The notes beneath the pieces are model-generated. The model did no database searches. It saw nothing but the letters and a program-made list of their open reading frames with translations, and had not been told where the DNA came from. Below, in pieces: positions 10,970-60,099 of a DNA stretch of 64,000 nucleotides. A program made the translations under genes and the position numbers. The stretch covers positions 24,800,001-24,864,000 of the forward strand of contig CM114271.1 of the NCBI GenBank assembly GCA_050084515.1. The letters are read 5' to 3'. Every line of letters starts with the position of its first letter. Within the stretch, counting starts at the first letter, position 1. The stretch comes from Blasia pusilla (lineage: Eukaryota).

Positions 10970-11213
10970 TGTCATGCGTATACACATTGCTACACAAATG
11001 TTGTTGTTACCAATTATAAACACAGAAACACAAGATACCATACTTGCTTATGACATCTGATCATCGAGATGATCATATAATAAATTATCTCCAATAAATC
11101 AAGATCACTGAAAAGCTCTGAAAAAATCTCCATCTCTTTCTCATGTCAAACCAAACCCACTCTCCTAATGAGATGCTTGGATTATTCATAAGGCAACCTG
11201 GACCATAACTTCG
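10970..11213 (-). mobile_element. Internally deleted fragment of the DNMT-retroelement family (3' tail joined to part of the 5' head)
   Basis: 10970-11060 matches the tail at 24847-24940 (TGTCATGCGTATACACATTGCTACAC). 11130-11213 matches the head repeat (AAACCAAACCCACTCTCCTAATGAG). Confidence 0.7.
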
Positions 11214-11289
11214 TTTTCGTGTAATAAAATGATTTACTAAGTATATTCCACTCTTACTAGTATTAGAGAGAGTGTTATAAGTATTAGAT

Positions 11290-20770: not shown

Positions 20771-20774
20771 GGAG

Positions 20775-24296: not shown

Positions 24297-24358
24297 CTAC
24301 ATAGCCCAAAATCCCAAATAGGCTCACGATTCTTTGTTAGACCTTGCCATTGTTGTTA

Positions 24359-24844
24359 GGTCTCACACCAAGCTCTCCATGGTGTGAAATCTCTCTCTTG
24401 TTAAACCAAATCCACTCTCCTAATGAGAGGCTTGGGTTACACACACAAGGCAAGGAGGACCATAGCTCCGCCACCTTATGCCAAGAGGTACAACAAAGAG
24501 AGAATGAGCTCTCAAGCTCTCTCTCTTGGAGCTATACCCCCTTCCCTCTCCCAAGCCCTCTCCACGGTGACCTATGCTCACACGTCACCTCCTTGGCTCT
24601 TGACCTGTTGTAGCGGGTCAAGGGCCACTTTCCAAAGTGGAAAGTCAAATATATCAAAGATAAGAATATACCCAAAATAGTAAGTTCCTCAATATGGCTC
24701 CAAATGAGCCGAAACGAAGGGGAAATCTGCTCTCTCACGTTATCTGTGGCCTCAGAAGGTCATCCTTAACCTCCTGAGACTATCCTCAAGTATCTCCAAA
24801 GACGCTCTACTAGATCTCGCCGATCTATCCTAAAAGACATAACA
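24359..24844 (-). repeat. About 490 bp 'head' repeat (LTR-like) abutting the tail of copy B
   Basis: Homologous to 33739-34223 and, inverted, to 35907-36347. Begins TGTTATGTCTTTTAGGATAG on the minus strand. Confidence 0.9.
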
Positions 24845-24846
24845 GT

Positions 24847-30800: not shown

Positions 30801-33800
30801 AACTCTACGGCGGTTCCACATGTAACAACAGTGGTTGTCTCCAATTGGCCAGTCGCGCACATCTAGCTAAAATCCTCCATATCTCCGATTGCTCTATAAG
30901 AAGTCGATGCCACAGATCCGGCATCAGATAACCTCAATGCGATAGCAGAAATCTGCTGTTGTAGCTGCTGTATGTGAGCAGCTATCCCAGCCTCTTGCCC
31001 AACATCTCCCTCGACACGTCTAGGTGGTGGAACTCTACCTCCTCCACCGGCAACTCCACCATCCCCTCCGACAAATCCAGCTCCTCATCCCCCAACAGGA
31101 CCACCTAGTCCATGACCTCTAGGCCCACCCTTATCAACAACTCGCTCTGGTGCCCTCTCTAGCCCTCGGTCTGGACATAACTTGGGATGTAGGCTAAAAC
31201 ACTTGGGGCGTGTATGACCGTACCTCTGGTAGTAGTCACAGTGATAAACTCTTGGTGCAACACCATCTCCTCCTCCATGTTGAGGCACGCGCCCATGAAC
31301 CTGACGTGTGCAATCGTGGTGGTGATGGGCTCCACCACATGCCCAACAAATAATCACACACGGCTGCTGCTGAGTTGCATATGAAGGCGCAGGTCTATGT
31401 GGCACGGCCTCTTGGTATCCTCCTTGAGCTCATGGTGCCACATACCTATCTCAAAATCCAAGTTGCTGCACTGGTGGTGCAGGCAATCGTGATTGCTCTT
31501 GCCTAGAACCCATGGTGGCTACCCTCTCCTCCGCCATGTTCCGCTCAATGTTCTTGACGATCGTAAAAACATCTCTCAATGTAGGTGAGGTGTGCTTAGA
31601 AGCATCCCATCCCAAAATGAAGACGGACGGTGCAACTGCTCCAATGTGAGTTACCCCTCCTAAAACATCACAGGTGGAAGTGGAAGAGGAAGAAGCCTCT
31701 CTTGACTCCTCCTCCTCATCTGCAAACAGCTCAGTCCATGACACATAGTGTGGGTCATAGTAGAGTCTCTATACCTCAATCTCTTGGGCATGTCTGTGGG
31801 AGAACTCATGGTAATCGTCCATGGGCGCCCCCTCTAAATGCTGCAGCATACCGTTCCATGTTGTGAACGAGTTGAACTCTCTAGAGTTCCTAGCCCGTTG
31901 TGAGTCGCACCAACTCCTAAACTCTGTAATGAAGTCGTATAGCTCTATGGTATCTATAGCACCCGAAAATCTACGCGGTCCTCTACCCCAATCGTCCAAC
32001 TTGTACGCCCAACTAGTAGGACCACTCAATGTGTGCGGTAAATCATTAACACACTCCTCTACACTCTCCCCCTTGTGTAAAGACGACACAGAAGGAGGTC
32101 GAGGCGGTCCATCACATGGAGACCTTCGAAACCTCGTGCCACTCCGCATAAATCCTCTGGAGCTACTCTCAGGTCCACCACATGGCCTCTCAAAGTCCCA
32201 AAAGGACGCCGTGATGACCCTTGTGCTATGCTCACGCGATCACTCTTCATCTCATGAGTAATCCCTCAATCACTCAATCCAACATGCAGCACTCAATCTA
32301 CACTCTCTCTCACTGAGACGTGTACTGTGCGACAACAAGCGGCGTGGTGCAGCAAATCGGTTGATCTCTTGTCTCATGAACAACATATATCCTCAATTCT
32401 GGACATCCCGCATAGGTCTAAATCCATACATCAATGATGCTCTCAACATCTGGACGAAACCCAATATCCCAAAAATTGCCCAATACCCGGAATTCCCTCA
32501 CATGTGCAAGGCAAAGGATCAAAATGGGTAACGTAAACAATGTCGATGTTGCTCCTCAGCAATTGCAAATCTTGATCTCAAGTTTCCCAACTTGGTCGTG
32601 AAGAAAAACTCCTCCAAGTAGCACGTCGTACTCCCCTCGTACTGATGATGCTCAAATCTCCTCGATGTGCGGTGCGGGTCCAACGGTACGGTGCGGCACT
32701 GGAAGCACAGAACGATTACACACGGCACGTCACTCAAGAATGGATGTGGAATTCAGCGGAAAATCCTCCTCAACAACAAAATAAAATCTGCTCCCTAGTG
32801 ATGGTGCGACTCCGTAATCGAGACGGTGTGGTGCGGCCGCAAGCCGCACGGCACGGCAATCGGCGGCGAGTTGCGGCTACGGGCATCATGGCACGGTATT
32901 CGATCATCGTCGAGCGGCTACCAGTCACGACATAGCAAAGTAGAAAAAAATATATGACTCCATCAATCCAAAAAAGTTTCCTGTCATCGCTGAGCGACCA
33001 ATCCATACTCGGTTGGTGACGAATTGTTACAATATAATATCGGCATCGAGAAAAAAATTGCAAATCAACCGTCATATTTCTGACGGTGCAAGAATAGTAG
33101 AGGGCACCCGTTGACGTTGTCGGACGGACTCAAGTCGACGGACGGAATGGGATAAATGTCGATGGAAAGACATAGATCCGACTAGCTTGCGTCACGAGAG
33201 TTCGAGTCGAGGCTGAATCGGGAGCCAGAGGCCGAGCGACGGGCGTGGGAGACAGACGCCAAGAGTCACAAAGCCGCAAGTCCAGCACCTAGACCCCCCA
33301 CCAGGAAATCTTCTTCATTCGACCTTCCAAAAAAAATTGACGAGGACTTTCGTGAAACCCAACGTCTCTTCTCTAACAAATTTTTCAGCTGCGCTTCCGC
33401 TCTCATTACTCCCAACAAAAAATTCAATTCAAACGTGTAAAATCAGAAATCAGAGAGGTACATGGTGCTCCCAAGAGCACCGGCATGGGGAAATTTGTTT
33501 CCAAACTCAATTTCTAATAGAAATTGAACAGCCCTTCCACTTGACACTCTCCCACACGAAAAATCGAACAACAAAATAGAAAATGGAGTGGCTCTTGCTC
33601 CCGCAAACACTCCCATGAGCCGCTGAATAGAGAACGCAGTCTCCAACATGCACCAACATCAAGTGACCAACAAGCTCCTAAATTGAAGCTCTCTCACTCC
33701 ATCATTCTATCTTTGTAAGTCAATCGAATCTCTCACAAGGTCTCACACCAAGCTCTCCATGGTGTGCACTCTCTCTCTTTTCAAACCAAACCCGTTCTCC

Positions 33801-34223
33801 TAATGAGAGGTTTGGGTTACATACATAAGGCAAGGAAGACCATAGCTTTTCCGCCTCATGCCCAGAGGTTCAACAAAGAGAGAATGAGCTCTCAAGCTCT
33901 CTCTCTTGGAGGTATATCCCCTTCCCTCTCCCAAGCCCTTTCCACGCTGACCTATGCTCGCTGGTCACCTCCTTGGCTCTTGACCTATTGTAGCAGGTCA
34001 AGGACCGCTTACCAAAGTAGAAAGTCAACTAAACCAAAAATGGTAACTTACCCAAAATAGTAAGTTACTCAATATGGCTCCAAATGAGCCGAAACGAAGG
34101 GGAAACCTGCTCTCTCAAGTTATCCGGGGCCTCAAAAAATCATCCCCGACCTCCTTAGGCTGTCCTCTGTATCTCTGATGGTGCTCTACTAGGTCTCGCC
34201 AATCTATCCTAAAAGACGTGACA
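24847..34223 (-). mobile_element. DNMT-retroelement copy B, full length (about 9.4 kb), decayed, nested in opposite orientation inside copy A
   Basis: Head at 34223-33739, gag with CWACGGAH..C knuckle (about 32150-31100), protease (about 30230), methyltransferase (about 29515-28590), RT (about 28100-27200), RNase H, integrase (HAHEELGH..CMVC), PHD (about 25295-25170), tail ending GCGCACGACA. Confidence 0.92.
28590..29515 (-). pseudogene. DNMT3-like C5 cytosine methyltransferase domain of copy B
   Basis: MLDLFGGINIG, DLVIAGWPY (Cys>Tyr), YILENV, AHRRRL, ERERAMGF and DQAID motifs. Confidence 0.88.
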
Positions 34224-35904
34224 GAGATCGGATCCTACAACAAGCCAAACAGTTTTAGTGGGAGGGGACACATGTGTAGCGAGTTTGGGAGGATGGTAGA
34301 GTTCATGTAGTGCATCATTCTTCGTAGAGAGCTCGTTTGGTGCAGCATGCCCACAAGGAGTTGGGTCAATTTGGAGTGAAGCGGATGTACAACTTGCTCC
34401 AGATATAGTATTGATGGCGAGTCATGCAGACTGGCGTTCAATAGTTTGTTGCTAAGTGCATGGTGTATGATCGAGTTCGGGCATCATTCAATGCTCCAAA
34501 TCGGTAGTTGCATCAATTTATGATCATAGCTCTAGGTTATAGATGGAGTTAAGATTTTGCAAGATCTTTACCTTTGACGGAATGTCATAGTTGTTATGTG
34601 TTGGTGATGGTCGAGCACTTCTCGTAGTGGATAGAGTTGGTTGCATTGCTTGACAAAGAGAGTGAGGGAGTAGCGTATGCCTTCCTAGATTGAATGTTGA
34701 GTCATTATGGCGTACCAACTGAAGTGTTGACTGACCAGGGTACCGAGTTTCGAGAGGAGTTTCAGGCCTTGTGTGATGAGGTGCTAATTGACCATCACAC
34801 CAATTTGCGAGATCATCATGAGGTAGATGGACTAGTGGAGAGGATTGTGCAGATGGTGAAGAGAGTTTTACGTAAGTATGGCTTGCAGAGAGGTCAGCTA
34901 GGAGATTGGGACCTCCAATTGTGGTGGTTGGCGATGGGGTACAGATTCAACAAGTAGGCAGGCATGCATCCTTAGTGTCTTTCTCGCCGTTCTTGGTGCT
35001 TTATGGCCGAGAGTCGGATCTACCTACGGCCATTCATTGAGATGCTCGTAAGGTGTTAAACCTTGATGACCATGATGTATGGATGCGAGCATGTTCTTAG
35101 AGGGCTGAGTTGTTTCAGAGAGTGATGCCTATGGCGTTTGAGAACTTTTCAATTGCACAATATCGGGATATGTTGAGGTATGCGACTATTTGGGGAGGTG
35201 GTTATCGACCTACTATCCAGAGGTTTCATCAAGGAGACTATGTCTACTTCTACTTAACGACATCCACGACATTGGATACGACTACAAGGCGTATTATCTT
35301 GAGAGTGCGTGAGGTTTTTCCATCTGATGTTCTCTTATTGGAGGATCGAAATGGTATGGTTTGGAAGGACCATATGCATAATTGTGCGCCATGTCACCTT
35401 CCTAACATTGACGGTGTAGTTGATCTCAGCTTAGCAGTAGTTTTTGTAGGCTTGCGATGTATGTTATGTGGTTCCGCCCGTGGTGCAACCACTATGCTCG
35501 TATGTGATGGATGTTCAGAAGATGGCCTATAGCATATCTGACGCCACCTCTCACTATGGTTCCTCGGGGACAATGGATGTGCCCTAGATGTACATAAAGT
35601 AGATAGTTATAGATTCTGACTTGTATCTGTGACATGGATGACAAGAAGGCGACTAACAATGGGGCCACAAGAGCACTCGATCTTTTTTCTCTTAGCGTTC
35701 TAGAGATGTAGGTCATGGTTGGTAGGGATCGATGGCTATCTATAGTTAGAGGGACCTAATCACCAACTATGGGGTGATTGGAGATATTTTGGTACTTCTT
35801 GTCTCGATGTTTGGATTCCATGATATAGCATGGGATTGTGTGTGTTTGTGTATATGTTCGGTGAAAACGATGTGTGTTGTATAGCAATGTGTATGCGCAC
35901 GATA
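34224..35904 (+). mobile_element. DNMT-retroelement copy A, 3' part (integrase, PHD finger, tail)
   Basis: Resumes at RDRILQ..WEGTH, about 200 bp downstream of where the 5' part stops when compared with copy C. EVLTDQGTEF, CMLCGS..CDGC..H..CPRC; tail ends GCGCACGATA. Confidence 0.88.
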
Positions 35905-35906
35905 GT

Positions 35907-36631
<725 letters not shown>

Positions 36632-46320: not shown

Positions 46321-49300
46321 CTTCTACTCCAATCGGATCCGAGGAGCGCAGTAGTTCCGAGTCCTTCACTGATCCAGGTGCGCTCAAAACAGCAGATCTT
46401 ATTCTGCGAATGGGTTTCGGACACCGCGGACAACAGGGAGCTAAGGAGGACCAAGGCATGCGGATCACAAGCACATAAAACGGGCCCTGGGAGAAAACTG
46501 AAAGGGCTCCTTCTACCTATCTATCTCCCCTACATCCATTCTGGATGAAACGCGAAACAGAGCCCTTCTCGGGGCAGAGGACAGAAAAACAAACTGTCCA
46601 ACTCTCCTCCCGGACCTCTCCTCTGCTCTGCTCTTGCCTTCCTTCTCTGCTGAAAGCGGGACCTCCTCTCCACCCACGCATGCCACCTGCGTCACGTTCA
46701 GTTGGTGCCTGTCCCAACGTCGTCGCCTATTCTCAAGCACGAGGCTAATCCATCCGTCATCCTGCCATCAGGGGCCTCGGATAGGTTATCGGACGGCTGT
46801 CAGTTTCTGTCCGATAACGGATGACGACGGGAATGGTGGGGTACGCACGGAATAAGTCGGCTCCCTTGGTAAGTCTCGTAGAGAGCTGGACGCCACCGAC
46901 TAATCTATGCTGAGGCCCTTCCGGTACCAGCCACGTAGGATTACCTCCTCGGGATGAACGTGGCAGTACTCAGCTCAATGTCCACGTGTGGACTTGCCCT
47001 CTGCGGGACTCCGCGGGAGTTGCTGTTGAGTCATGAGATGGAGGGAAGACCTTGGCTCCGTACATGAACTTGGCCCGCGTACGCGCCCCTCTGGAGGTTC
47101 GGGTTCAAGAGGTGGCGGGCCCGTCACCCCTCCATCCAACAGTCCACTGCCCATCCGTACCGGCAGCCGCGGAACCCGTGAAGCTGTCCCGATATTCGTT
47201 GCGGCGTCTCCCCGTCTCGGGACGCCGACTCAAGCGACTACCAGTCTCCCCCACACCCAAGCTACCGTGGAGATTTTCCTACAATTCCAGAGCGGAAATA
47301 ATGGAGCTACATGCGTCGATTTCACAGTTGCCACGCCCTGGTTGGCTGAACGCCATGTTACAATTCTCCTGGGCCTAAGCCCTCGGTGGCGGCTAAGGAC
47401 GTCTTTGCTGCGTGCCTGTTCCCTCGTTCGCGTCGAGGCATCTTTGGTTGTTCCAACAAGCGAGACTAAACTAAAACGTAAGGTTTTCATGACTCCTTGC
47501 CACCCATTCCTTTAGTATTTAAAAGTTGACCAAAAAAATCAAGTGACTTTCAGTATGATCAAGTTCTCTAGCTTTTCAAGTTCTTAAAAAACCATGCTCA
47601 TGAATGGTATGTTTTAAACCATGATTAAAAGAAATCCTTTGTAATTTTTTTGAACGAAATTCTAAGCGTTTCCGCTTCTTATTAAAATTAGAATTATTAA
47701 TTCATTTCTGTTTCCCCGTAAAAAAATATTACAATTCTATGAAAGGTTCTTACCCAATATCTAAAACCCATAATGAAAAATCTTCATAGCCACATGAATT
47801 TGTTCATATTTGAATGATTGTAAGATTTCAAAGTTCGTAGCATGTCTTATTATCGAGTGAAATTCTACTCCCAATCACGTCAAACTTTGTTATTTCCTTT
47901 CCGCTAACCTTAATGCGACAATAAAATTTTACTTCAATAAATTTCAATGTAGCGAGAAGATGAGACGACCTCACAAGATCCAGATATTTATTAACAAATG
48001 GTACGCTTTTGTGTTATTGTTATCCATCTTCAAGATTTCACACTAATGGGGAGGAATTTATTGGGCCCAGTGCTTTAATTTTTGAGATAAAGTATTAACT
48101 TTTCGTTCAATGGGGCCGAATACCCAAAAGACATATAATTGACATCGGCCGATACTCCAACATTGACTTTGTCGAGCATTTCCTTACGTTTGTGAGATAT
48201 TACTTCCTACTCTTCCTTCTTTGCTTGCGATTTATGTTTAGTAGGCTTCTATTATTTCTTGACATTTTTATTCCATCTTTCAACCCCATCTCATACCGAG
48301 CCAAATTAGGCTATTCTGTTTTAATCTTTTATCCTTCCATACTTTCCTTTCTCTTAGCGTGGGATAGGATTAACTTTACTTAACGTTAGTTTATTTATTT
48401 TCAATTTGAAGACGTCGATAAGTTTCCTACCAATCCATTTGGGAAAAAGTTAAAGAAACACATGAAGATCACTTCTTGATCACATCACTCAATGTTCTAA
48501 GCCATTAATTCGAGTTTTAATGAAGCCCACGATTAAAGAGACAAGGCTGGATTTAAACCACTTTAAATGCTCTTATAGCCACTTAAACTGGCCAATTTTA
48601 AATGAAACAAAGTTAGTTTTAGGGCATGGTTAAGTAATAATTAATCACTAGTAAGGTGCATGTGAGATGCCTGGATAAAAAAGATTTTTTTTATTATGAA
48701 AATAATTAAAAAATTTATTTCATGAAATATATTTTTATACACAATGTTTCAATTGTATTATTTTTTCATTGGAATGTGTATCATTATAGATCATAATATG
48801 AATTGAACTCTTTTATCCTACTCTAGATAACGCCACATATGACTTGCCATGAAAAAGGCATGCATGGATAAATATTTTCCAATCTTTCGTAAAGTTTGAT
48901 CTTGTGACTTATTGATAGTGATGGAAAAAGCTGGACGGATAGGGAATTAGGATCTACATAAATCAAAAGGCAACCCTGACTCATAAGAAATCAATGGGAT
49001 ATGAGGAATGAAAAGTCAATCTCCAATGTTCTTCCTTGTAATAATTTCAGCATCAATATTATGTTGCATGAATCTACGAATGATTAACCGAGTGTCATTC
49101 ACTTGTCCTTTTGCCCCATTCATGTTCCGTAAAACCACAATTGGTGCATCAATCTTCAAACACAACCGATGTGGAACCAGTCTAGAAGGTAAGCATATAT
49201 TCAAAAACTCTGTCACATCTGAGTAGCCAATAGGCCGAGATCTATCGTGGATAGGGCGTAGGAGCCAGCGGACTATCTTGAGTGTAACTTTATCCCACGG

Positions 49301-50519
49301 TGTCGGATGAGGTTGAGGATAGGTCCATTGTGTCAAGAACGTCGTTTCTGACAACTTTCATGTTGAGGTCTTTTACATCCGGATGACTTGTTGACCAGGT
49401 CACCCGCCCCTGGTAACTTGGGCGCGCACGTTACCAAGGGGAGGGCTATTTTTAGGGGAAGAGCCTTTTGGCTCTTCCCAACCCTATATAAGAGAGGAAG
49501 ATGGCTTCCATAAGCAATCTTTCTCATGTTGGGCCGTTGGAGCACCTCCCTTGTATGTGTGTGAGATAGGACTAGGGTGCTAGCGTCCGGATTCCTTGAT
49601 AGCACAGGGTGGACGAGGCTCGACATGCCGATGTAGATTGAGGAGTGGAGTTTTAGACCGGGTGTGCCATTTTTACTACTCTTTATTTTTTACATGAGAA
49701 AGATGTTAGGGGGCTGGTGGGAACTCATTGTTTGCAGGTAGGCAAGCGAGTTGCCTTGGTCGGGAGCCCCTGGAGACGCGTGTGTTGCGGGTGTTTGGAA
49801 GGGCATGGGCGGAAGCGCTGTCCGTTTTTCTCAGATTTTGCTGGTATGGATTGACGCGGTACAGCAGCCGAGTGTAGTGTGCGGTGGAGCGTCGGGTGTA
49901 CGCGAGTGAGGATGTCGAGAGAGAGAAGAAAAGAGAGTTAGGGCTTGCAGCCGCCGGGGGCGTTGACGGGCGTTTAGGTCGGCGGGCGCGGACAGACGGC
50001 GCGGACGGCGGGCGGCGAGGGCGCGCCCCCCTGTGTGTGATTGAGAGTGCTATGTATCGAGTAGTAGCTGGTGCTAGGTGGGTGCAGTGATGGTGACGAG
50101 TGTAGATTCTTTTCATGTGTAGCATGTTGGTGGATTACGGCGGTTGCCGAGTAGGGGTTGCGTGTATGACCCAAGAGAGTGCCACTAGGTTAGGTGAATC
50201 AGTTGGGAGGCTCATGGTGAGCGTGAGTGTTGAGCGTGCGTGAGGCCGGGTATGTCATCACGGGATTGATGTTAGCATAGGTGAGCTAGTGAGGCGTGTG
50301 GGAGACTCTCGGTGAGTCTAAGTGCTTGAGCGGGTGAGACAGGGTTTGTCATCACGGCGTTCTTCCAAGGTTCGGAAAATGGGGTAGTGCGAGCAGTAGT
50401 AGTGGTGTGACACGGAGTGGAGTGAGATACCGAGGGGTTACCTGTGAGGAGCTACCTTGACATCCATCCGTGGCTGGATAGTCATCATCGACACCGGTCG
50501 GTGGCGAGATCGCTGCATG

Positions 50520-51800
50520 AGACGAGAGTATTTGGCAGGAGATGGACGACATGGGCCATCGAGGCATGCGTCGTTTCTCGGGTGCAGTGGGCACCATCGA
50601 CTTAGATGATTTTATCTAGGAGTTTGACACATGGTGCGACTTCCAGGAGATACGGACCCCGACACGGGTCAACCCTTTCATGGCATGGAAGGGGTTGTTC
50701 CAGTACTTGGAGGGTCCTCCAATGGATGACTACATGGAGTTTCCATCACTACATTCAATAGAGATTGATGCCTGGAGGATGTATTAGGCTCCAGGGTATG
50801 TGTCCACTAATGGTCGCGAGGCATATGATGGGATTGTGAGAAGAGAGAGACCCACACCATAAGCCCGGAGACTAGATGGAGAGGAGGGCAGTGAGACAGG
50901 CGATGTGGCAGAGACCTCTGGTGGTAGAGGGCCACCCAACTTCAGCCCCACAGTGGAGTTCTTCCGACAGTTAGGGAAGAGTTACCAGGGCTTACGCACC
51001 GACAAGCTGAAGAGTCTATAGGATTTTCAGCGACGATCGGGTGAGAGTCTGAGAGAGGCATTCACAAGCATGAGGAGGCTGATCATTGCTACGTTTGGAG
51101 GATCGAGGCGCGATCACCCGATTGGTGACGGGTTCGGACCGAAAACTACGGAGGAGAGTTTGAGATGCGGTGCTGAATCACAAAGCGAAGCCCACATTGA
51201 AGGTAGTCTTTGAGTTGTCAAAGCGTATTGAGCTCAACATGAGTGAGGAGCAGGTAGTGACCGCTGGATTTTCTCGGGAGTCGACGGGTCCACGAGCGAC
51301 GGTGACCCCATAGGTGCCACAGCAAGCACCAGTATCACGGGAGCGGGCCAGTGTGCCTAGAGAGCAAGGCGGGTACCGTGAGCCTATGAGGCAACGACCC
51401 GTACCTACATATGTTGCCCAGCAGGGACCGATGTGGTCTTGTTGGACGTGTGGAGGGGCCCATAGGCATAGAGACTGCCCACAGCATGGGAGAGGACCAC
51501 CAGTGCCTCCAATTGCTCAGGAGCCACAGAGGATGGTCCCACCACAACACCAGTGTGACCATTGCCATAGATATGGTCACACTAGGGATAGATGTTTTGA
51601 CCTTCGTCGAGGGGCACGTCCAAAGGTAGGCCGAGGGCCTTGGGGCGGTCGTCCTAGAGGAGGTCAGGGAGTTCATCCTGGACGTGGTGGTAGAGGACCA
51701 CCACCAACTAGAGGAGATGGAGCAGGAGCACCAGAGCCGCCACTTCTCTCATGCATCGATCAGTTGGAGCAGAGGATTGTTGCCATGACGATGATGCGCT
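50520..51800 (+). pseudogene. gag of copy C with two zinc knuckles and an RGG-rich stretch
   Basis: RRFSGAVGTIDLDDF..WKGLFQYLEGPPMDDY; CWTCGGAHRHRDC and CDHCHRYGHTRDRC. Confidence 0.8.
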
Positions 51801-52429
51801 TTAGGAAGGCACGGAGCTGCGAGCAGCTAGTGTGACTCCAACTTCTACCTCTTACCCTGACCCGAGTAAGGATCTTGCCAGTATAGGATTTATGTGTAGT
51901 ACAGCCCAGGTTGAGGCATCTGCAGTGGTGACTCGGGGTGCTGCGAGAGGCACCGAGCCATGGAGAGGTGGAGTTGAGATTGACCCACCAGAGGGGACCG
52001 ATGGGCGGCAAGCCAGGGTTCCACAGTCGTTCACATTGTCGGAGGCACTACACACACCATCGATGGTGCCTCAACGACCAACGGTGCCTACAGTTCAGGC
52101 ACCTACGTCGACGTCACGAGGAGTTGGAGTGACAACTCCTATGCCGGCTCGAGTGGAGTCAATGTTGACCATAGTGTTGGAGGTGGCCACCAGAGTGAGT
52201 CAGACTCCGCTATTTTCCGCCATAGATTTGGCGACGTTGGGGGTTGGACCAGCTGAGGTGTTCCCGTTGGCCGCCACGTTGTGTGAGCGTGGAGAGATGA
52301 CTGCTTCTTGTTCAGAGGTAGTTGAGGAGGTGGTGGACTTGCCATCAGAGCCGGTGCTTGGGACGTTCCCCACAGAGTCATGGCATGCGGCGGCGGCGAA
52401 GTTGGTAGATATGCCAGCTCGACCGGCCA

Positions 52430-52900
52430 TAGAACGAGTAGTGGTGACACCTGGAGTAGTGTTACTGGATAATCGAGCTGGAGTATTTCGCTTGGTTAGT
52501 CCGACGGGGACTATATACCACCCGCAGCGCGTCCTACTTGATTCGGGAGCGCAACCCTTGATGTTAGGGAAGACGGCGTGTTTACCATTGGGATTACGGA
52601 AGGCCGACATTGAGCCTTGTCCCTTCCAGATCTGAGACCTCAATTGGGGCGTATCACCCACTCAAGATATGACTCGACAGAGATTGTTGTTAGAGTCCGG
52701 CCGAGTATCGACGGATAGTGCTATGGTGCGCACACATGCGATTACGACACTGGCCGTAAGTGCGATGTGTTGGTGGGGAGTACAGTGTTATATCCCCTAG
52801 GATTCATCCTTGACTTCTGGGAGGAGACCGTTGCTAATCGGCCAAGATGGCCATCAGGTGACGGCCAGATGAGTCAGTTACCCATGCAGTTTGCGGGACG
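52430..52900 (+). pseudogene. Retropepsin-like aspartic protease of copy C
   Basis: VLLDSGAQP active-site motif and downstream DVLVGS..L. Confidence 0.85.
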
Positions 52901-53249
52901 AGGTGGTCGATCACGAGGCGAGTCTCTGACCACGTTGGCAGCTTTCACAGGTAGTGTTAGCTGGCCAGGAGAGTTGTTGGAGGGGAACGCACATGCGGAG
53001 GATGTCCCAGTAGCGGATAGTCCCACGGAGAGACAGGCCATGGCGGGTGTCTCTTCCCATGTTGGAAAGGCCTCTTCACCATTGTGGGGTACGACTCGAG
53101 AGCTACAGAGGAGTGTCGACGACCTCGTGAGGCAGGCGTGGAGTCATGTTTTATCCCAAAGCAGCAAGAGTCACGTGGCGATCGGGCTCTTGGAGTGGAG
53201 ACGTTGACCCCATTGGATACCACACCTGTTGTGTGGCAGTGCCCAGAGG

Positions 53250-54190
53250 AGGGTGTTAGGGTGTTAGATCTCTTCGGAGGGATTAGCACTGGATTGGCTG
53301 CACTATTGCAGGCGGGCATACGGGTGCATCAGTACCTTTATGTGGAGAGAGATAAGACCGCGCGGCGAGTATCATTACGTCACGTGGCAAGATTGGTCCA
53401 GAGGTATCCTAAGTTGTTGCCGGTATCTGCAGTACGGGGATATCAGCATACGCTACCCACCGACATCTCTTTGGTGGGGGCGCAGGATCTGGATAGAGTT
53501 GGCACCATTCATTTGGTGATTGCTGGATGGCCATATCAGGGTCATTCATCAGCTGGCCGAGGATTTGGATTGCAGGATCCGAGGTCAGGGATGTTTTGGG
53601 AGATGCTGCAAGTAGTATGACACTTGTAGGAGAGTCAGATATGTTCTCCAGTGATATATTTTGGAGAACGTGCCATTGTTGGGAGACACTCGTGCACGTG
53701 TGATGACGAGTGTACATCAGGTGAGGTCCTGGTTGGGACCTGCTATGTTGTTAGATGCAGCGAGAGTTTGGTCACGTGCCCATCGTCCACGACTATGGTG
53801 GACTAACTTGATACCATCAGAGGTATTGAGTCGAGCATACGATGGAGTCCAGAGAGCACCACATCTCACAGTGGATGCTATTTTGGGCTCAGGGTGTCGA
53901 TCTCAGGTGGTGACACGAGATGATAGACCACCGTTGGCCATGGCCAATAGGGTGGGGGAGTTGAGGGCAGCCTTACCTACGTTGGTAAGCTTCCCAACAT
54001 CCCATGCCTTTCGTCAGGGAGGGCCAGGCATGATTTGGGATGAGGTGACCGGAGCATTGGAGGAGCCTACAGCATATGAGCGCGAGCCCGCCATGGGGTT
54101 CACTACCGGTACTACGGCGGTGCCAGGGATGACTGAGGCATCCCGGAGACAGGTGTTGGGGCAGGCAATGGACCTCAACTGTCTCATATG
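53250..54190 (+). pseudogene. DNMT3-like C5 cytosine methyltransferase domain of copy C
   Basis: VRVLDLFGGISTG (I), YLYVE (II), LVIAGWPYQG (IV, Cys>Tyr), GLQDPRSGMF, ILENV (VI), AHRPRLWWTN (VIII), ERE.AMGF (IX), RRQVLGQAM (X). Confidence 0.92.
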
Positions 54191-54654
54191 GATAGTCAGC
54201 CTAGGTATGGCTGAGCAAAGACGGATGCGAGTGTCATCCATGTCGTCACGTCCACGAGTTGGACCATTGCCTACAGGGTCTGTATAGGCATTGGTTGGGG
54301 GCAAAACAAGGAGAGATAGGCACCCATGGACTTCCTGGGACGTCGTTCAAGCAGAGAGTGCGAAGGCCGCTAGAGTAGCACATGTTCATTTTTCGGATGC
54401 GGAGCATGGTGTAGGAGGTCAGAGTGGAGTGGATGTTGCGGAGGTGGCTAGGGTTGCTACATAGCAACCAAAGCCCGAGGTTACGTCCTCTCTGAGTGAG
54501 GTCACGATGGAGACTTGGGAGCTTGTGATAGGTCTCAAGTTGATAGGAGGAGAGCGACGGCGAGTTCATAGGTTTCTAAGAGGGCATGTCAGTTTTTTTG
54601 CCTTCAGTATGAGAGACTTGGGTATCGCTGAAGGGTCCCGGGATACGGATTGAG

Positions 54655-55940
54655 TTGGCTAGTGATACGTCGATCTTTCGTCGACCCTACAGGTATTCTT
54701 ATATGGAGCGAGCCTTGATTCAGAGCAAGAGTCAGGACTTGTTGGAGGGAGGACTTATGGAGTTATCACATGGGGAGTATGCATCTCCCACAGTCATGCC
54801 GACAAAGAATGATATATATGGCAATTGGACGGATAGGCGGATGTGTGGAGATTACCGTCCTATCAACCAACAGACGAGGTCAGATCGGTACGCCATGCCT
54901 ACTCCCGAGGAGATCTTTGATGTGGTAGGGAATGCAAAGATCTTCAGTACTTTAGATCTCCATGATGCTATCATCATCTTCTTATTAGGTTGGAGGACAA
55001 GGAGAAGACAACATTCTGGGGGATAGATCGGTTCGGGAGAGATTGCTTATATCAGTGGCGGTTCTTACCATTTGGGTTGAAGAACGCGCCTGCAGAGTTT
55101 TAGAGAGTGATGGATAGGATTCTCGCTGGCTTGGATTTTGTACGATGTTACATAGATGATATTCTTATCTTCAGTTCCATGGTTGAGGAGCATGAGCGAC
55201 ACTTGGAGGAGGTGTTTCGGCGATTGCGTTACATGGACTGAAGTTACATCCAGGCAAGTGCAGATTCTTTCAGGAGTAGATTGAGTACTTGGGACACATC
55301 ATATACCCGAGTGGGTTAGGCGTTCAGAGATGAAGGTAGAGGCTATTGCGCAGATTCCACGCCCTATAGATGTGAGTCGGGTCCGAGCATTTCTTGGACT
55401 GGCGAACTTCTATCGACGGTATGTCAAGGGTTTTAGCGCGATCACAAAGTCTTTGACCTTGTTGACGAGACTTGATCAGGTTTGGTTGTGGGGAGACGAT
55501 CAGGAGCGAGCATTTTAGGAGCTCAAGGACAGGTTGACGTCCTCACCCATTTTACAGAGACCGGTTAGGGGTCGCCCATTCCAGTTACATATGGATTGGA
55601 GCATGTTGGATCTAGGAGCAGTGCTTACTCAGAGGGATGACGAGGAGAGGGAGTTCGTTGTGGCTTACGCGAGCCGATCAAACAACATTGCAGAGGCGAA
55701 GTACAGCTCCTACAAGGGAGAGTGCTTGGCTGCAATGTGGGCCATGCCACATTTCATGTGCTATTTATTCGGTAACCCTTTCACACTTATCACTGATCAT
55801 CCGCCGTTGAGGTGGTTGATGGAGTCCGACAAGCTCACGGGAAAGCTTGCTAGGTGAGCTCTTTTACTACAGGAGTATGAGTTTGAGGTGTTTCATAGGC
55901 CAGGTCGGCTGAACCAGGATGCGGATGGGTTGAGTCATAA
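54655..55940 (+). pseudogene. Ty3/Gypsy reverse transcriptase and RNase H of copy C
   Basis: RMCGDYR, FSTLDL, LPFGLKNAP, CYIDDIL, FLGLANFYRRYV, VVAYASRS, ITDH.PL. Confidence 0.95.
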
Positions 55941-56199
55941 CCCATATCCAAGTCAGAGAGACGACACAGGAGCTAGATGGCACGGAGAGAGTAATGAGGA
56001 GATGGTGCCCGGTTGGCATGCATCTGCCTATCTTTGTTGGCTGACTATGGTAGGTCAGCCACAGGTGATGACTCCAGTGGTGGAGTTGGATGATGAGTCT
56101 TTGGATCCCGAGTTTAGTGAGGAGGCGAAAGGTGGTCGTGATATCCATGATGACGTGGAGGTTGTGGAGTTCTTGCGCACTGGCGTCATTGCGAGTACA

Positions 56200-57581
56200 G
56201 TGAGTGCTAGGGAGCGGGATCGGATCCTAGAGAGAGCCAAGAGGTTCAGGTGGGAGGGGACTCACATTTTGCGGGTATGGGGAGATGGTAGGATACGAGT
56301 GGTTCCTCATCTTCCCATTGAGCACGTGTAGTGCGACATGCCCATGAGGAGTTGGGACATTTCGGAGTAAAGCGTACTTACAGCTTACTCCAGGTTCACT
56401 ATTGGTGGCACGGCATGCATCTTTGGGTACAACGGATTTGTGGCGGATGTATGGTATGTGACAGAGTGCAAGCATCCTTTAATGCTCCAACTCCGCAGTT
56501 ACATCCTTTGCCGATTATGGGTTTAGGTTATCGGTGGAGTTTAGACTTTGCGGGACCTTTGCCATTGACGGGACATCATCATAGGTACGTGTTGGTCATG
56601 GTGGAGCATTTCTCCAAATGGATAGAGTTAGTGGCACTACCAAATAAGGCGAGCGAGGGAACAACTTATGCATTTCTAGATCGTGTGCTTAGTCACTTTG
56701 GTGCACCGGTGGAGGTGTTGACTGACCAGGGTACCGAGTTCAAGGGAGAGTTTCAGGCCTTGTGTGATCAGGCGCTGATAGATCACCACACCACGTCCAG
56801 AGATCATCCTGAGGCGGATGGGTTGGCGGAGAGAGTGGTACAGCCGGTGAAGAGAGGATTGCGCAAGTATGGCTTGCAGCAGGGACAGTTGAGGGAGTGG
56901 GACCTACAGTTGCCATGGTTGGCTATGGGTTATCGCTTTGGTCGGCAGGCATCCTTTGCATCATTTTCACCGTACTTTTTGCTCTTTGGGAGAGAGCCAG
57001 ATTTACCTGCAGCGATTCGACGTGACATGGTGGAGGTGTTAGATCTTGATGATCCAGATATATGGGTACATGCATGTTCTTAGAGGGCAGAAGTTTTTCG
57101 TAGAGTTATGCCTATGGCCTTTGAGAACTTAGCTATTGCCCAACATAGAGATACATTGAGGTACGTGACCATTCGTGGAGGAGATTATCATCCAGGGATT
57201 AGAAGGTTTCATCCTGGAGATTACGTGTATTTACAGCAGGCGGCACCCACAACGCTAGATGTCACTGCAAGGTTCACAATCCTACGTGTGCGCGAGGTAT
57301 TACCGACCGGAGTCCTCATGTTGGAGGGACGGGATGGTATGGTTTGTAAGGATCATGTGCGCAATTGTGCGCCATATCATCTTCCGAACGTAGATGGGAC
57401 GGTGGTTCTGAGCTTGGCAGTGGTACCTGCAGGCTTGAGGTGTATGTTGTGCGGATCTGCGAGGGGTGGAGCCACCATGTTGGTATGTGATGGTTGTTCT
57501 TGAGGGTGGCATATGTCATGTCTGACCCCCCCTCTTGATGTGGTTTCCACGGGACGATGGATGTGTCCGAGATGTGTATAG
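56200..57581 (+). pseudogene. Integrase with C-terminal PHD finger of copy C
   Basis: HHCC motif (HAHEELGH..CMVC), SLDFAGP, LTDQGTEF, DGLAER; PHD CMLC..CDGC..WHMSC..WMCPRC at 57441-57575. Confidence 0.93.
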
Positions 57582-60099
57582 GGTAGTAGGTCATGTTAGA
57601 GAGATGTGATATTTTCTATCTGGAGTTTGGGAGATCCAACTGCCAGCTAGGGGCACGGTTGTGTGATCTCCATGTATATGTATGAGTTGATTTTTGTACA
57701 TGTGTGGATCGACCCGTGTGTGGGGAAGATCGGTGTTGTGTGGTATAAATGTGACCAGCGATGTATGTTGTGTAGCGATATGTATGCGCACGACGACAAC
57801 TCTGTTGAATAAATATAATTCATTCCCTCATTTGTAACAAAATCAATACTAAGATAAATATGGTTTTGTACATAATATACACTTTTTAGAAAACATTTTC
57901 CCAAAAACTTAGTCTAAATTTGATAAATTAGACAAAATTAAGTCATTTTCATTAAGAGTAAGAATATTAAGAATAAAAATTATTACCTATCCATAAAATA
58001 GAGACATGACTTATGTATTTATGTCATCAACATCTCTATTTCTTGGTTTAAGAATAATTGTATCTCTCAAAAATTTGATGTCATTAAACCTTTGAAGATC
58101 ATTCCCATATATAATATCAATAAGATAATTTACATTCTTGCTATAAGCAATCATGTTAGATAGTAGTGGAATAAAATCTTCTCCCAAAGAAGTATGTAAC
58201 GGAAACACCTAAAGCAATACCTCCCTTACTTCTTACTCTTGCAAGGAGAAAATTATATAATAAGGTCTTTTATGTTCCACCTAGGCCATCCATAAAAAAA
58301 ATTTACATAAGGTTAGATCATTATGTGTCATGTTATCCAATTGATCTTGCAATTGATTGTGTATAGCATCCCAAATGATCCATTGTCCATCATTCAAAGA
58401 TGCCTCTCCACTTCTAACTTGCTCACGTAAGTCATTTTGATTATATAAGAGTGTCTCTTCCTCCAAAAGTGTTTGTGAATGAGGGGATTCAAAGTTAGGT
58501 TGTGGCATATCTGGAAAATCATACAATCTCTTTCGAAGATCTTGCAAATGATAATGCAGTGTTAATGGTAGAAGCATCAAGTGGAAGATTCGGAATTCTT
58601 CTTATCTGCAAGGACAACCGATATAAATCTAAAAGCTATCCATAGATATGGTTGTGAATAGGAAGAAGGAAAAGAAGAAGAAAGATGAACAAAGTTCTAA
58701 TTCTTTTGATTACCTCATGTTGTTCATATAATATATCCTCTATGAGTGGAGCCAAAAATTGACTTCATGCTACAATCAATCTAGTAGGTATATTATAAGG
58801 CAAAATAACAACAAATAATTGGCAAAGTGAGGAACCGATGCGAATCTCTGAAGATTCTTGTAAGCAAGAGAAGACTTCATTATCATCCTCAAGAAGTCCC
58901 AATTGAAAAGCAACTTCCTTAAAAGTTGGATGTATTACTCTATGTACAATTCTCAAGTGTTCATAGAAAGACGCACCTAGAACATGATGAAGAAGTAATC
59001 GTAGCCAATGACGTTCTACGTCAACTGTTGAAACATATGTAATTGGTTGGATCATTTAGTATCGGAAAAAAATCACTTATTTTCTTACATTAAAATTTGA
59101 AAGTTAAATAAGAAATTCAACCCAAATTAAAATAATGGCTACATAAGCATAGTACAATATATATTGTTTACTTGGATATGTAAGGCATAAATATCCAATA
59201 AGATGACGCAACCATTTATTCTTTGTATTCTACGAACTCTTTTTTTTTTACTCCAACGATAATATAAAGGAAAGTTATGATCTAAATACTCTCGAGCCAT
59301 TCGATCCAGTTGACAAGAAATAAACCATTGAGCTAAGGTGGTCTCCCTATTTCTTTGTAAAATATCTCATGCATGTCAAAATCACTGATGTAAACCATTT
59401 ATGCCTTTGCTAGATGAAGAGCCAATCTCATTACACTTGGATGTTCAACATATAAATTAAACTTGAAAAGTTGCCAACATGCCTCTAAAGAAGAGATATA
59501 CCTACATACAATTCCAATATAACTTACTTTATAGACTTCAATGTATATAATGTCATTAAAAAATTGAATGAGAATTAGAAAGAGAATAAAATTCTGTTAA
59601 GTTTACCTTGCATCGAGATATATGTTTATCTCATAGATGATCTCCATTGTCGTGGAGGTATCCATATCTTTTGAGACCTTAAATGATATAACATCAAATC
59701 CCTTACATACATATTTATATAAGTATTTCACCGCAGAAATATTATTTCTGATCTCCAAATTAATTTGAAAATCAAAGAGGATATATAATAAAGGATTATA
59801 AGGCATGACCCATCAATTATCCAAGCACTTGTCGCGCTGAATTATCTTCTTTCCATCGTCCAATCTAGCGAATGTAGCGAGAACAGATATAAGATATAAG
59901 ATATGAAGATTAGAAGAGATGAAAGATATATGTAGGATTTACAACCAAAAATAAATAAAATTTATACACTACAAGAAGCTCTACTTTAGAGTTCATTGAG
60001 AAATTAATAGTTTAAGAACCTTTGATAGATTGGGTAACCATCTTCAATCTCCGAAGTCAGAGCCGTAAATGCCTTGGCATAGCCTTTGGTATATTTTTT

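What the first reader, a model, noticed from the sequence alone, without database searches (positions are those of the whole stretch)
49207..57802. Complete, TSD-flanked Gypsy-like insertion with no long terminal repeats
Seen in sequence: both boundaries are fixed independently, because excision restores the Helitron codons (YLSIDFVTNEGMNYIYSTE|FLNICLPS). The insert begins TGTCAC and ends GACGACA with a duplicated ACTC (4 bp, or AACTC 5 bp if the last A is target). Only about 220 bp follow the PHD stop codon and they do not resemble the 5' region by eye. I find no polypurine tract or clear tRNA primer-binding site. The same tail also ends without a following repeat at 10970 and 36631. Inference: the mobile unit is head-to-tail with short inverted integrase ends, which standard LTR replication cannot regenerate.
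Basis: partly seen in the sequence, partly recalled or inferred. Interest (0 to 1): 0.9.

Follow-up and report, generated by a model that had tools for sequence, protein, structure and literature searches.

The report
Gypsy-DNMT3 retrotransposon copy missing its 3' repeat module
This is a decayed copy of a plant (bryophyte-type) retrotransposon that carries a DNA methyltransferase; the copy really has no terminal repeats, but its family does, in an unusual split arrangement (head-body-tail-head-tail), so the copy is a cut-down derivative and not a new repeat-free kind of element.

Summary
The insertion is real. It spans 49211-57798 (TGTCAC...GACGACA), has a 4-bp duplication ACTC, and splits a Pif1/Helitron helicase remnant. 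It has no terminal direct repeat.

It encodes gag(CCHC)-PR-DNMT3-like-RT-RNaseH-integrase-PHD and is riddled with stops.

The family is not repeat-free. Reads of the same species laid on the copy show abundant tail-to-head joints (57794 to 49210-49213) and head-end-to-tail-start joints (49690 to 57658). Head depth is about 1.7 times body depth. The usual form is therefore A(480 bp)-I-B(141 bp)-A-B.

Other copies in the window show the same layout. So do 20 of 80 related metagenome loci, with 4-bp duplications in 5 of 5 complete ones. The tails at 36631 and 10971 are second tails, each preceded by a second head.

The same split-repeat layout was noted for KnitGypsy-Dnmt3 (PMC5890265, Fig. 4c legend).

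Copy C lacks A2-B2. The likeliest cause is a B1xB2 deletion. Less likely, it is a one-unit product of reverse transcription. How an integrase element regenerates A-I-B-A-B remains open. A conserved G-run abuts the start of B, and the B|A joint is the palindrome GACAGCTGTC.

The parts
49207..49210 (.). left copy of the 4-bp target-site duplication (ACTC)
   Evidence: 4-bp rule supported by 5 of 5 complete relatives
49211..49690 (+). A: head repeat unit (starts TGTCAC; TATA box TATATAAG at 49485-49492), U3/R-like
   Evidence: Boundary 49690 from read joints 49690->57658. Depth about 1660 against about 1000 in the body. TATA box seen by eye.
49691..50619 (+). leader / 5' untranslated region with a short internal repeat (50204-50357)
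50620..51832 (+). gag remnants with two CCHC zinc knuckles (51314-51832)
   Evidence: Translation (CCHC seen by eye). No Pfam hit at E<=0.01.
51805..52632 (+). protease region (LLDSGA motif)
   Evidence: Translation, motif by eye. No Pfam hit.
53021..54284 (+). DNMT3-like C5 cytosine methyltransferase domain, in two frames
   Evidence: PF00145 at E 9e-4, below its cut-off. 198 homologues, many annotated as or carrying PF00145. The orthologous ORF of L073 hits only DNMT3A/B/C in PDB, 29 of 29.
54613..55854 (+). reverse transcriptase and RNase H
   Evidence: PF17917 at 6.8e-27 and PF17919 at 1.1e-24. The RT piece matches the other copies.
56322..57581 (+). integrase (H2C2 zinc finger, rve core) and C-terminal PHD finger; in-frame stop at 57501-57503, final stop 57579-57581
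   Evidence: PF00665 at 4.8e-15 and PF17921 at 4.5e-13. PHD PF00628 at 2.7e-8 in the orthologous ORF of L073. In C the PHD is read by eye.
57643..57657 (+). conserved G-run (polypurine-tract-like) that abuts the start of B
   Evidence: alignment of 25 sequences; 14 sequences
57658..57798 (+). B: tail repeat unit (ends GACGACA); the last ~43 nt are conserved across families
   Evidence: Boundary 57658 from read joints. 42-nt matches at 89-93% to the other copies.
57799..57802 (.). right copy of the target-site duplication (ACTC)
48401..49210 (-). target: downstream half of a decayed Pif1/Helitron-type helicase (EFLN... onward)
57803..58600 (-). target: upstream half of the same helicase remnant (...YIYSTE)
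24301..34223 (-). copy 'A' of a related family, nested in copy 'B'. A1 33738-34223, B1 24851-24962, A2 24358-24845. No B2, and its 3' end is lost together with ~184 bp of the host copy.
34226..36631 (+). 3' part of copy 'B' (5' part at 20769-24300). B1 35789-35904, A2 35907-36349, (TG)n 36350-36512, B2 36516-36631.
10971..11213 (-). 3' end of a further copy: B2 (10971-~11090) preceded by the end of A2 (11134-11213)

Best explanation
Copy C (49211-57798) is an old, inactivated insertion of a Ty3/Gypsy-type retrotransposon. Its polyprotein carries a DNMT3-like methyltransferase between protease and RT, and a PHD finger after the integrase.

The family's usual proviral form is A-I-B-A-B. A is a 480-bp head with the promoter, I is the coding body, and B is a 141-bp tail. 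After the first tail come a second head and a second tail. A DDE integrase inserts the element by TGTCAY...GACA ends and makes a 4-bp duplication.

Copy C has only A-I-B. The likeliest cause is unequal recombination between B1 and B2 after insertion, which removed A2 and one B and kept the duplication. This is the small-repeat counterpart of solo-LTR formation.

How the family works:
- Shown: repeat layout, termini, duplications, domain order, and the positions of the G-run and the TATA box.
- Inferred: transcription starts about 30 nt after the TATA box in A1, so the RNA lacks the first part of A and A2 supplies it, as U3 of a 3' LTR does.
- Inferred: the G-run primes the plus strand at the first base of B.
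- Inferred: the A-end|B-start joint is the equivalent of a U5|U3 (LTR-LTR) joint.
- Inferred: the B-end|A-start joint is the two integrase ends back to back (GACA-GC-TGTC).

On this reading the provirus is a circular permutation of a conventional element whose LTR would be B+A. Copy C can make protein-coding RNA at best and cannot be copied again.
For: **Copy C itself**
- Boundaries, duplication and target are established.
- No terminal repeat in C.
- Domains are established.

**Reads of the same species**
- The body has about 1000x depth, against about 1.5-6x for the flanks.
- The listed tail-to-head joints (57794 to 49210/49211/49213) total 334 reads in run X17 and 334 in X18. They are also present in X1 and X2 contigs.
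- Head-end-to-tail-start joints (49690 to 57658 and close variants) total 485 reads in X17.
- Head depth is about 1660 against about 1000 for the body.
- 598 reads in X17 have AT-rich, non-agreeing sequence before 49211. These are genomic flanks of first heads.
- From these incomplete counts, full : solo A-B : A-I-B is roughly 1 : 0.45 : 0.34. This is what recombination between a longer and a shorter repeat pair would give.
- Only 304 of 67,230 laid reads in X17 are at least 99% alike, so the family is old and has had time for deletions.

**Other copies in the window** show B1-A2(-B2).

**Related loci**
- 20 of 80 are B-A-B, which is 15-16 of 39 non-redundant groups.
- A1/A2 pairs of 328-342 bp at 86-92% identity occur in the five loci L010, L018, L040, L073 and L079.
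- 4-bp duplications occur in 5 of 5 complete copies.
- The G-run abuts the start of B in all 25 aligned sequences.
- The B|A dinucleotide is GC in 9, AC in 10, AT in 3 and GT in 2 of 24. All are purine-pyrimidine, as expected for GC plus transitions.

**Precedent.** The PMC5890265 Fig. [quoted passage not shown]
Against: - A-I-B ends are frequent among related loci: 25 of 80, or 21-22 of 39 non-redundant groups (L022 was misclassified there). 3 of 6 such copies with both ends have a perfect 4-bp duplication and one has a 3-of-4 match. For repeats of only 115-141 bp this is more than I would expect from recombination alone.
- These are short-read metagenome contigs, so a skipped B-A-B loop or a chimeric join is possible. 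L016 matches L015 at 13 mismatches in 2690 nt, then has 4 mismatches in the last 20 nt of B, then a different flank.
- No transcript ends were mapped, so the roles assigned to A, B and the G-run are inference.
- No primer-binding site was identified.
- The permuted-LTR reading does not by itself explain why the mirror form A-B-A-I-B is never seen (0 of 17 loci with a 5' head).
- Nothing in C's single B shows that it is a B1/B2 hybrid.
Confidence: 0.55

Rival explanations
1. Copy C is a primary integration product, not a later deletion. The family's replication would regularly yield both a full A-I-B-A-B DNA and a one-unit A-I-B DNA. The one-unit form could come from an RNA ending at the first tail, from reverse transcriptase not making the A-end to B-start switch, or from a one-LTR-type circle opened at the palindromic B|A site. 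The integrase inserts both. A-I-B copies are then dead on arrival.
For: - A-I-B 3' ends occur in 25 of 80 related loci, and 3-4 of 6 have 4-bp duplications.
- L016 (A-I-B type) differs from the full copy L015 by only 0.5% in 2.7 kb.
- B starts exactly at a conserved G-run, and the B|A joint is a palindrome of the two integrase ends (letters between joints). A unit-length molecule with exactly C's ends is therefore a natural intermediate.
- B is UG/UGUA-rich and ends in CA, like a plant poly(A) site. This is seen by eye, and the plant-signal comparison is recalled, not tested.
Against: - The metagenome contigs may be collapsed or chimeric.
- In the host species the rough read counts put A-I-B copies (about 0.34 per full copy) below solo A-B units (about 0.45), as simple recombination predicts.
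- No RNA or cDNA ends were seen.
- The family is old, so deletions had time to occur.
Confidence: 0.3
2. The autonomous mobile unit is the repeat-free A-I-B with short inverted ends, replicating by a route that needs no terminal redundancy. The A-B additions in other copies are secondary.
For: - C is flanked by a duplication and has no repeats.
- A-I-B ends are common in related contigs.
Against: - Tail-to-head and head-to-tail-start joints are abundant in the same family and species, and the head is about 1.7 times as deep as the body.
- B-A-B is found across at least three diverged groups and other host species.
- A conserved TATA box lies inside the head, so the head's first part would not be transcribed from a lone copy (inference).
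- 5 of 5 complete relatives with duplications carry A2-B2.
Confidence: 0.06
3. Copy C's missing A2-B2 is an assembly collapse in the window's source assembly. The real locus would be a full A-I-B-A-B.
For: - No read or contig listed bridges 57798 into the flank.
- The family has hundreds of copies.
Against: - Other copies in the same window were assembled with B-A-B intact.
- The window resolves nested copies at 77-87% identity.
- The exact 4-bp duplication and restored helicase frame fit a real junction, although a collapse of the copy's own loop would keep them too.
Confidence: 0.05

Closest known systems
KnitGypsy-Dnmt3 of Klebsormidium nitens (de Mendoza et al. 2018, PMC5890265; section 9 and the Fig. 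4 legend read)
   Same: Both are Gypsy-type polyproteins with an un-rearranged DNMT3-like domain inside pol. The repeat layout was described there as that of a DIRS element (A-coding-B-A-B). The host is a streptophyte.
   Different: - The hosts here are bryophyte-like. The best named hits are Calypogeia, Marchantia, Riccia and Sphagnum, with more distant fused forms in Closterium.
- A PHD finger follows the integrase. The paper's main text has 0 occurrences of 'PHD'.
- The 4-bp duplications, the palindromic B|A joint and the G-run at the B start are not in the text I read. The paper's supplements were not available to me.
- I did not compare sequences with K. nitens directly.
Canonical Ty3/Gypsy (Metaviridae) LTR retrotransposons
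   Same: Shared features are the PR-RT-RNaseH-integrase order, H2C2 plus DDE (rve) integrase, TG...CA termini, a short target duplication, a G-rich tract upstream of a repeat, and a promoter in the 5' repeat.
   Different: There are no two identical LTRs at the ends. The repeats are split (A at the 5' end, B-A-B at the 3' end). No tRNA-type primer-binding site was recognised next to A. There are extra DNMT3 and PHD domains.
DIRS-order elements with split direct repeats (Ngaro / PAT-like; layout as summarised in the PMC5890265 Fig. 1e legend for SymbioDIRS-Dnmt3: A-coding-B-A-B)
   Same: The order of repeats is the same. An internal B|A joint holds a copy of both element ends.
   Different: Those elements encode a tyrosine recombinase. 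From memory, they make no target duplications. Here there is a DDE integrase and 4-bp duplications.
Solo LTRs and other intra-element recombination products of LTR retrotransposons
   Same: A deletion between two direct repeats of one element keeps the original target duplication. Copy C would be the B1xB2 product and 'A-B' units the A1xA2 product.
   Different: The deleted segment is the short 3' module, not the coding body. The product still looks like a full-length element.

Membership tests
Ty3/Gypsy LTR retrotransposon | pol order protease-RT-RNaseH-integrase with an rve-type DDE integrase | tested here: met
   PF17917, PF17919, PF00665 and PF17921 appear in this order. tblastn maps the same order in three copies. 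RT PF00078 is present in fused homologues.
Ty3/Gypsy LTR retrotransposon | two long terminal direct repeats at the very ends of the element | tested here: not met
   Copy C has none. The family has A...B-A-B, not LTR...LTR.
Ty3/Gypsy LTR retrotransposon | TG...CA termini and a 4-6 bp target-site duplication | tested here: met
   Copy C has TGTCAC...GACGACA with ACTC. Duplications occur in 5 of 5 complete relatives and 3-4 of 6 A-I-B relatives.
Ty3/Gypsy LTR retrotransposon | tRNA primer-binding site next to the 5' repeat | tested here: inconclusive
   No TGG-type site was seen after the A end or at the A start (by eye). No host tRNAs were available.
Ty3/Gypsy LTR retrotransposon | polypurine tract directly upstream of the 3' repeat | tested here: met
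   A conserved G-run abuts the start of B in 25 of 25 aligned sequences. Its function was not tested.
Gypsy-DNMT3 (KnitGypsy-Dnmt3-like) | DNMT3-type C5 methyltransferase domain inside the Gypsy polyprotein | tested here: met
   The domain lies between protease and RT. The L073 orthologue hits only DNMT3A/B/C chains, 29 of 29, best E 4e-8. Fused proteins carry PF00145 with PF00078, PF00665 and related domains.
Gypsy-DNMT3 (KnitGypsy-Dnmt3-like) | DIRS-like split repeats A-coding-B-A-B | tested here: met
   Met at family level. Copy C itself does not have them.
Gypsy-DNMT3 (KnitGypsy-Dnmt3-like) | common descent with the K. nitens elements (sequence relationship) | not tested
   No K. nitens sequence was retrieved. 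Hits reach Closterium, but Klebsormidium was not listed.
DIRS order (Ngaro/PAT-like) | tyrosine recombinase instead of DDE integrase | tested here: not met
   An rve integrase is present. No recombinase domain was found in the pieces scanned.
DIRS order (Ngaro/PAT-like) | split direct repeats with an internal B|A joint | tested here: met

The most novel reading that the evidence does not exclude
A streptophyte-wide lineage of integrase-encoding Gypsy elements may replicate by a non-canonical route. In this route the integrated form is a circular permutation of a two-LTR molecule. The integrase would work on an internal 10-bp palindrome (GACA-GC-TGTC) that holds both element ends back to back. 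The A-end|B-start joint would be a preserved LTR-LTR (U5|U3) joint, made afresh in each cycle next to the plus-strand primer site. TSD-flanked A-I-B copies such as C would be primary insertions of the unit-length form. This would be an LTR-type retroelement that uses a circle-junction-like site, or two ordered template switches, instead of terminal LTR ends.
Probability: 0.3. Interest if true: 0.75.

Novelty: new member of a known kind. Interest (0 to 1): 0.5.

Why it matters
The claim that made this finding exciting, a complete integrase element with no terminal redundancy, does not hold. The copy is a cut-down member of a family with split repeats.

What remains is still useful. The Gypsy-DNMT3 elements, described in print only for Klebsormidium, are abundant in bryophyte-type genomes. 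There are hundreds of copies here, and relatives occur in Marchantia, Calypogeia, Riccia, Sphagnum and Closterium.

These elements combine a DIRS-like repeat layout with true integrase hallmarks (TG...CA ends, 4-bp duplications). No published model explains how a DDE-integrase element regenerates A-I-B-A-B.

The details found here give concrete handles for an experiment:
- the plus-strand-primer-like G-run exactly at the start of B;
- the palindromic joint of the two ends;
- the absence of the mirror form A-B-A-I-B;
- the recurrent A-I-B copies.

For annotation, LTR-based tools will miss or mis-bound these elements.

Tried and rejected
- **Whole-genome census.** No genome is held for this window, so all copies could not be tabulated.
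- **DIRS-like repeats inside C.** None were found.
- **Splicing as the source of the A|B joint.** Rejected. The skipped segment has TA..CG ends, not GT..AG.
- **Ribozyme or known structured RNA in A or B** (retrozyme-like circular RNA). There were 0 Rfam matches in the window, L073, L079 and L040.
- **tRNA primer search.** ARAGORN found 0 tRNAs in the window and 0 in 30 loci. No complementarity test was possible.
- **Conserved RNA structure across the B1|A2 region.** The result was weak: -16.6 kcal/mol, covariation term -1.2, 14 sequences. I make no claim beyond a small conserved hairpin before the G-run.
- **Reverse-transcription schemes.** I considered a primer site after A with the LTR equal to A, and a primer site at the A start with the LTR equal to B. 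These predict A-I-B-A and B-A-I-B respectively. Neither is observed, so both are rejected as they stand.
- **Coding integrity as an age proxy for full versus A-I-B loci.** All copies are equally decayed, so this was uninformative.
- **Aligning integrase pieces of window copies A and B as a query.** They contain stops, so C's integrase alone was used.
- **Metagenome counts of B-only ends.** I do not treat them as solid, because of the L015/L016 chimera pattern.


Full report
**1. The observation**

TGTCAC begins at 49211 and GACGACA ends at 57798. ACTC stands at 49207-49210 and again at 57799-57802.

On the minus strand the right flank reads ...YLSIDFVTNEGMNYIYSTE and the left flank continues EFLNICLPSRLVPHRLCLKIDAPIVVLRN.... 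The left flank matches Pfam Pif1_2B_dom from profile position 1 (E 4e-10). The insertion therefore splits a decayed Pif1/Helitron-type helicase at one exact point.

The copy has no terminal direct repeat:
- The repeat finder reported 32 short families, none of the 20 listed joining the ends.
- blastn of the copy against the window finds inside it only itself and one 61-nt internal pair.

The PHD frame stops at 57579-57581, leaving 217 bp.

**2. What the element encodes**

Three-frame translation and Pfam give this order:
- gag with two CCHC knuckles (by eye);
- a protease-like LLDSGA stretch (by eye);
- a C5 methyltransferase (PF00145, E 9e-4, below its cut-off);
- RT and RNase H (PF17917 at 6.8e-27, PF17919 at 1.1e-24);
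- integrase (PF17921 at 4.5e-13, PF00665 at 4.8e-15);
- a C-terminal PHD-like finger interrupted by a stop.

In the better-preserved orthologue L073, the PHD finger is PF00628 (E 2.7e-8). Its methyltransferase ORF hits only DNMT3A/B/C among solved structures (29 of 29, best E 4e-8).

Homologues of the methyltransferase piece carry names from Calypogeia fissa, Marchantia, Riccia and Sphagnum. Longer, fused forms with RT, RNase H, integrase and PHD domains occur in Marchantia, Sphagnum, Closterium and metagenomes. The host is thus bryophyte-like, and the element is a Gypsy-DNMT3 type.

The copy is dead. Every domain is split by stops or frameshifts.

**3. The family is not repeat-free: evidence inside the window**

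A self-comparison of the window shows three more copies of related families, at 64-77% identity to C in the body.

- **Copy 'A'.** This minus-strand copy is nested in a plus-strand copy 'B'. It has a 488-bp head at its 5' end (33738-34223) and the same head again (24358-24845, 86.7%) directly after its tail (24851-24962). Its 3' end is lost together with about 184 bp of the host copy.
- **Copy 'B'.** This copy shows the whole 3' module: tail 35789-35904, head 35907-36349, a (TG)n run, and tail again at 36516-36631 (85%).
- **Third copy.** Its 3' end lies at 10971 on the minus strand, with the end of a head at 11134-11213 just inside it.

**4. The family is not repeat-free: reads of the same species**

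Laying two raw-read runs and two contig sets labelled as one organism on 48600-58400 gave these results.

- Depth is about 1000 over the body, against about 1.5-6 in the flanks. That means hundreds of copies at 88% likeness or better.
- 'Goes back' joints run from 57794 to 49210, 49211 and 49213. X17 has 210 + 95 + 29 reads and X18 has 226 + 81 + 27. The letters between them make GACA-GC/AC/GT-TGTCAC.
- 'Skip' joints run from 49690 to 57658. X17 has 384 reads, or 485 with close variants. X18 has 370 for the main one.
- Depth over the head is about 1660.

The family's usual form is thus A(49211-49690)-I-B(57658-57798)-A-B, and copy C lacks A2-B2.

In X17, 598 reads have unrelated AT-rich sequence before 49211. 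These are the flanks of first heads. The listed counts are incomplete, because 214 joints and 5285 loose ends were not shown. Taken together they suggest roughly 1 full : 0.45 solo A-B : 0.34 A-I-B.

**5. Other hosts**

A scan of metagenome contigs with C's integrase gave 80 loci at 58-81% amino-acid identity.

Classified by BLAST with family-specific A and B queries:

| Class | Loci |
|---|---|
| B-A-B | 20 |
| Single B followed by unrelated sequence | 25 |
| B-A then something else | 2 |
| Less than 500 bp after B | 6 |
| No B found (most end soon after the integrase) | 27 |

L022 is counted among the single-B loci, but it is B-A-B.

After merging near-identical loci, there are 15 B-A-B groups, 22 B-only groups (21 after the L022 correction), 1 mixed group and 1 other.

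Five loci hold a complete element. Their A1/A2 pairs are 328-342 bp at 86-92% identity, and B1/B2 pairs in the B-A-B loci are about 108-129 bp at 88-98%. All five have a 4-bp duplication: AAGG, TCTC, AATG, CATA and AATC.

Of six A-I-B loci with both ends, three have a perfect 4-bp duplication (TACA, ATTA, TACA). One has a 3-of-4 match, and two have none.

None of 17 loci with a 5' head has a B next to it. The mirror forms B-A-I... and A-B-A-I-B were not seen.

Caveat: these are short-read assemblies. L016 (B-only) equals L015 (B-A-B) except for 13 mismatches in 2690 nt. It then has 4 mismatches in the last 20 nt of B and a different flank. That is the signature of a join inside B, either real or made by the assembler. 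I treat the B-only frequency as weak evidence.

**6. Anatomy that bears on mechanism**

An alignment of 25 tail regions shows three conserved features.

- **A G-run.** It is preceded by a small hairpin-like inverted repeat, and its last bases abut the first base of B in every sequence, including C (57643-57657).
- **The last ~40 nt of B.** These are conserved between families whose coding regions are only about 70% alike.
- **The B|A joint.** It reads GACA-NN-TGTCAY, with NN = GC (9), AC (10), AT (3) or GT (2) of 24. NN is always purine-pyrimidine, as expected for GC altered by transitions. The ancestral joint is the 10-bp palindrome GACAGCTGTC, with the two integrase ends back to back.

The A-end|B-start joint in the moss-type group reads ...TTTTCA-GT-TGTGG, which is again CA-NN-TG.

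A TATA box preceded by a G-run sits inside every head. I saw it by eye.

No tRNA-type primer-binding site was recognised after the A end or at the A start. No host tRNAs were available to test this. No Rfam family matches. A consensus fold of the junction region is weak.

**7. How it most likely works**

*Shown:* the repeat layout, the termini, the 4-bp duplications, the domain order, and the positions of the TATA box and G-run.

*Inferred from standard LTR-element biology:*
- Transcription starts shortly after the TATA box in A1. The RNA therefore lacks the first part of A, which A2 must supply.
- The G-run is the plus-strand primer, so B begins where plus-strand DNA begins.
- The A-end|B-start joint is then the equivalent of a U5|U3 joint.
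- The provirus is a circular permutation of an ordinary element whose LTR would be B+A, opened at the palindromic B|A site.

Simple two-primer schemes predict A-I-B-A, B-A-I-B or B-A-I-B-A, none of which is seen. So either a joined (circle-like) intermediate is opened by the integrase at the palindrome, or reverse transcriptase makes an ordered extra switch from the B start to the A end. The absence of A-B-A-I-B argues for a directed process. I cannot decide between these two routes.

**8. What copy C is**

C has A-I-B with an intact duplication. Two origins fit.

- **(a) Unequal recombination between B1 and B2 after insertion.** This is the small-repeat analogue of solo-LTR formation. I favour it because the family is old. 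Only 304 of 67,230 laid reads in X17 are at least 99% alike. The rough counts also put A-I-B copies below solo A-B units.
- **(b) A unit-length primary product.** This is suggested by the frequency of A-I-B ends in related contigs and by the logic of the B|A site.

Either way, C cannot be a source of new copies, because its RNA would lack the first ~280-300 nt of the head.

A repeat-free autonomous unit is not supported. An assembly collapse at 57798 is unlikely but was not excluded by a bridging read.

**9. Comparison with what is known**

The closest described element is KnitGypsy-Dnmt3. The Fig. [quoted passage not shown]

A 2026 preprint mentions 'streptophytes (Gypsy-DNMT3)' in passing (10.64898/2026.05.21.726589; passages).

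Four full-text searches found no paper that describes these elements in bryophytes, their duplications, or a replication model:
- 'KnitGypsy-Dnmt3';
- 'Gypsy-DNMT3';
- split direct repeats + integrase + Gypsy;
- DNMT3 + retrotransposon + bryophyte + Klebsormidium + integrase.

Subscription journals and supplements were not searchable. The element fails one defining test of a canonical LTR retrotransposon (two terminal LTRs) and one of DIRS elements (tyrosine recombinase). It fits the Gypsy-DNMT3 kind.

**10. Verdict**

It is a new (bryophyte) member of a known, barely described kind, and copy C is a derivative. Interest is moderate. The open question is how an integrase element maintains a split-repeat provirus, and the junction features found here make that testable.

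Noticed in passing
window 24301-34223 (minus) inside 20769-24300 + 34226-36631 (plus): One Gypsy-DNMT3 copy is nested in another of a related family (77% identity). About 184 bp of the host copy and the inserted copy's B2 are missing at the 3' junction, so no duplication can be read there.
   Followed up: partly
window 36350-36512: A long (TG)n microsatellite sits exactly at the A2|B2 joint of copy 'B'. In copy C, B begins with GTTGTGTG, so the run may have grown from the start of B.
   Followed up: no
window 48600-58400, read differences: Differences between reads and copy C are dominated by C>T (728) and G>A (808), against 30-230 for other types in X17. CpG observed/expected is 0.73 in C and 0.50-0.59 in related loci. 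This fits methylation-driven deamination of elements that themselves encode a DNMT.
   Followed up: partly
L015 vs L016: The two contigs are 99.4-99.5% identical over 2.7 kb of integrase-to-tail sequence. One continues B-A-B plus flank. The other has 4 mismatches in the last 20 nt of B and then a different flank. This is either a chimeric assembly or a recombinant.
   Followed up: yes
upstream of B in all copies, e.g. window 24985-25005 (minus), L073 ~11390-11426: A conserved small inverted repeat (GTTAG...CTAAC) lies just before the G-run. It is invariant or nearly so in 14 of 14 sequences.
   Followed up: no
window 5510-6259 vs 11212-12031; 39314-39836; 3356-3530 vs 60488-60663: Other repeats unrelated to the finding: an 828-bp direct pair at 71%, a tandem array of roughly 110-160-bp units, and a 177-bp inverted pair.
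   Followed up: no
window 53500-53530 (DNMT motif IV region of copy C): Where C5 methyltransferases have the catalytic Pro-Cys motif, copy C reads GWPYQGHS. The catalytic cysteine codon appears mutated in this copy. The motif assignment is by eye and from memory.
   Followed up: no
window 14899-15898 (minus): There are short fragments of gag, protease and RNase H of a further related copy, heavily deleted. This may be the body belonging to the 3' end at 10971-11213, interrupted by other insertions.
   Followed up: no
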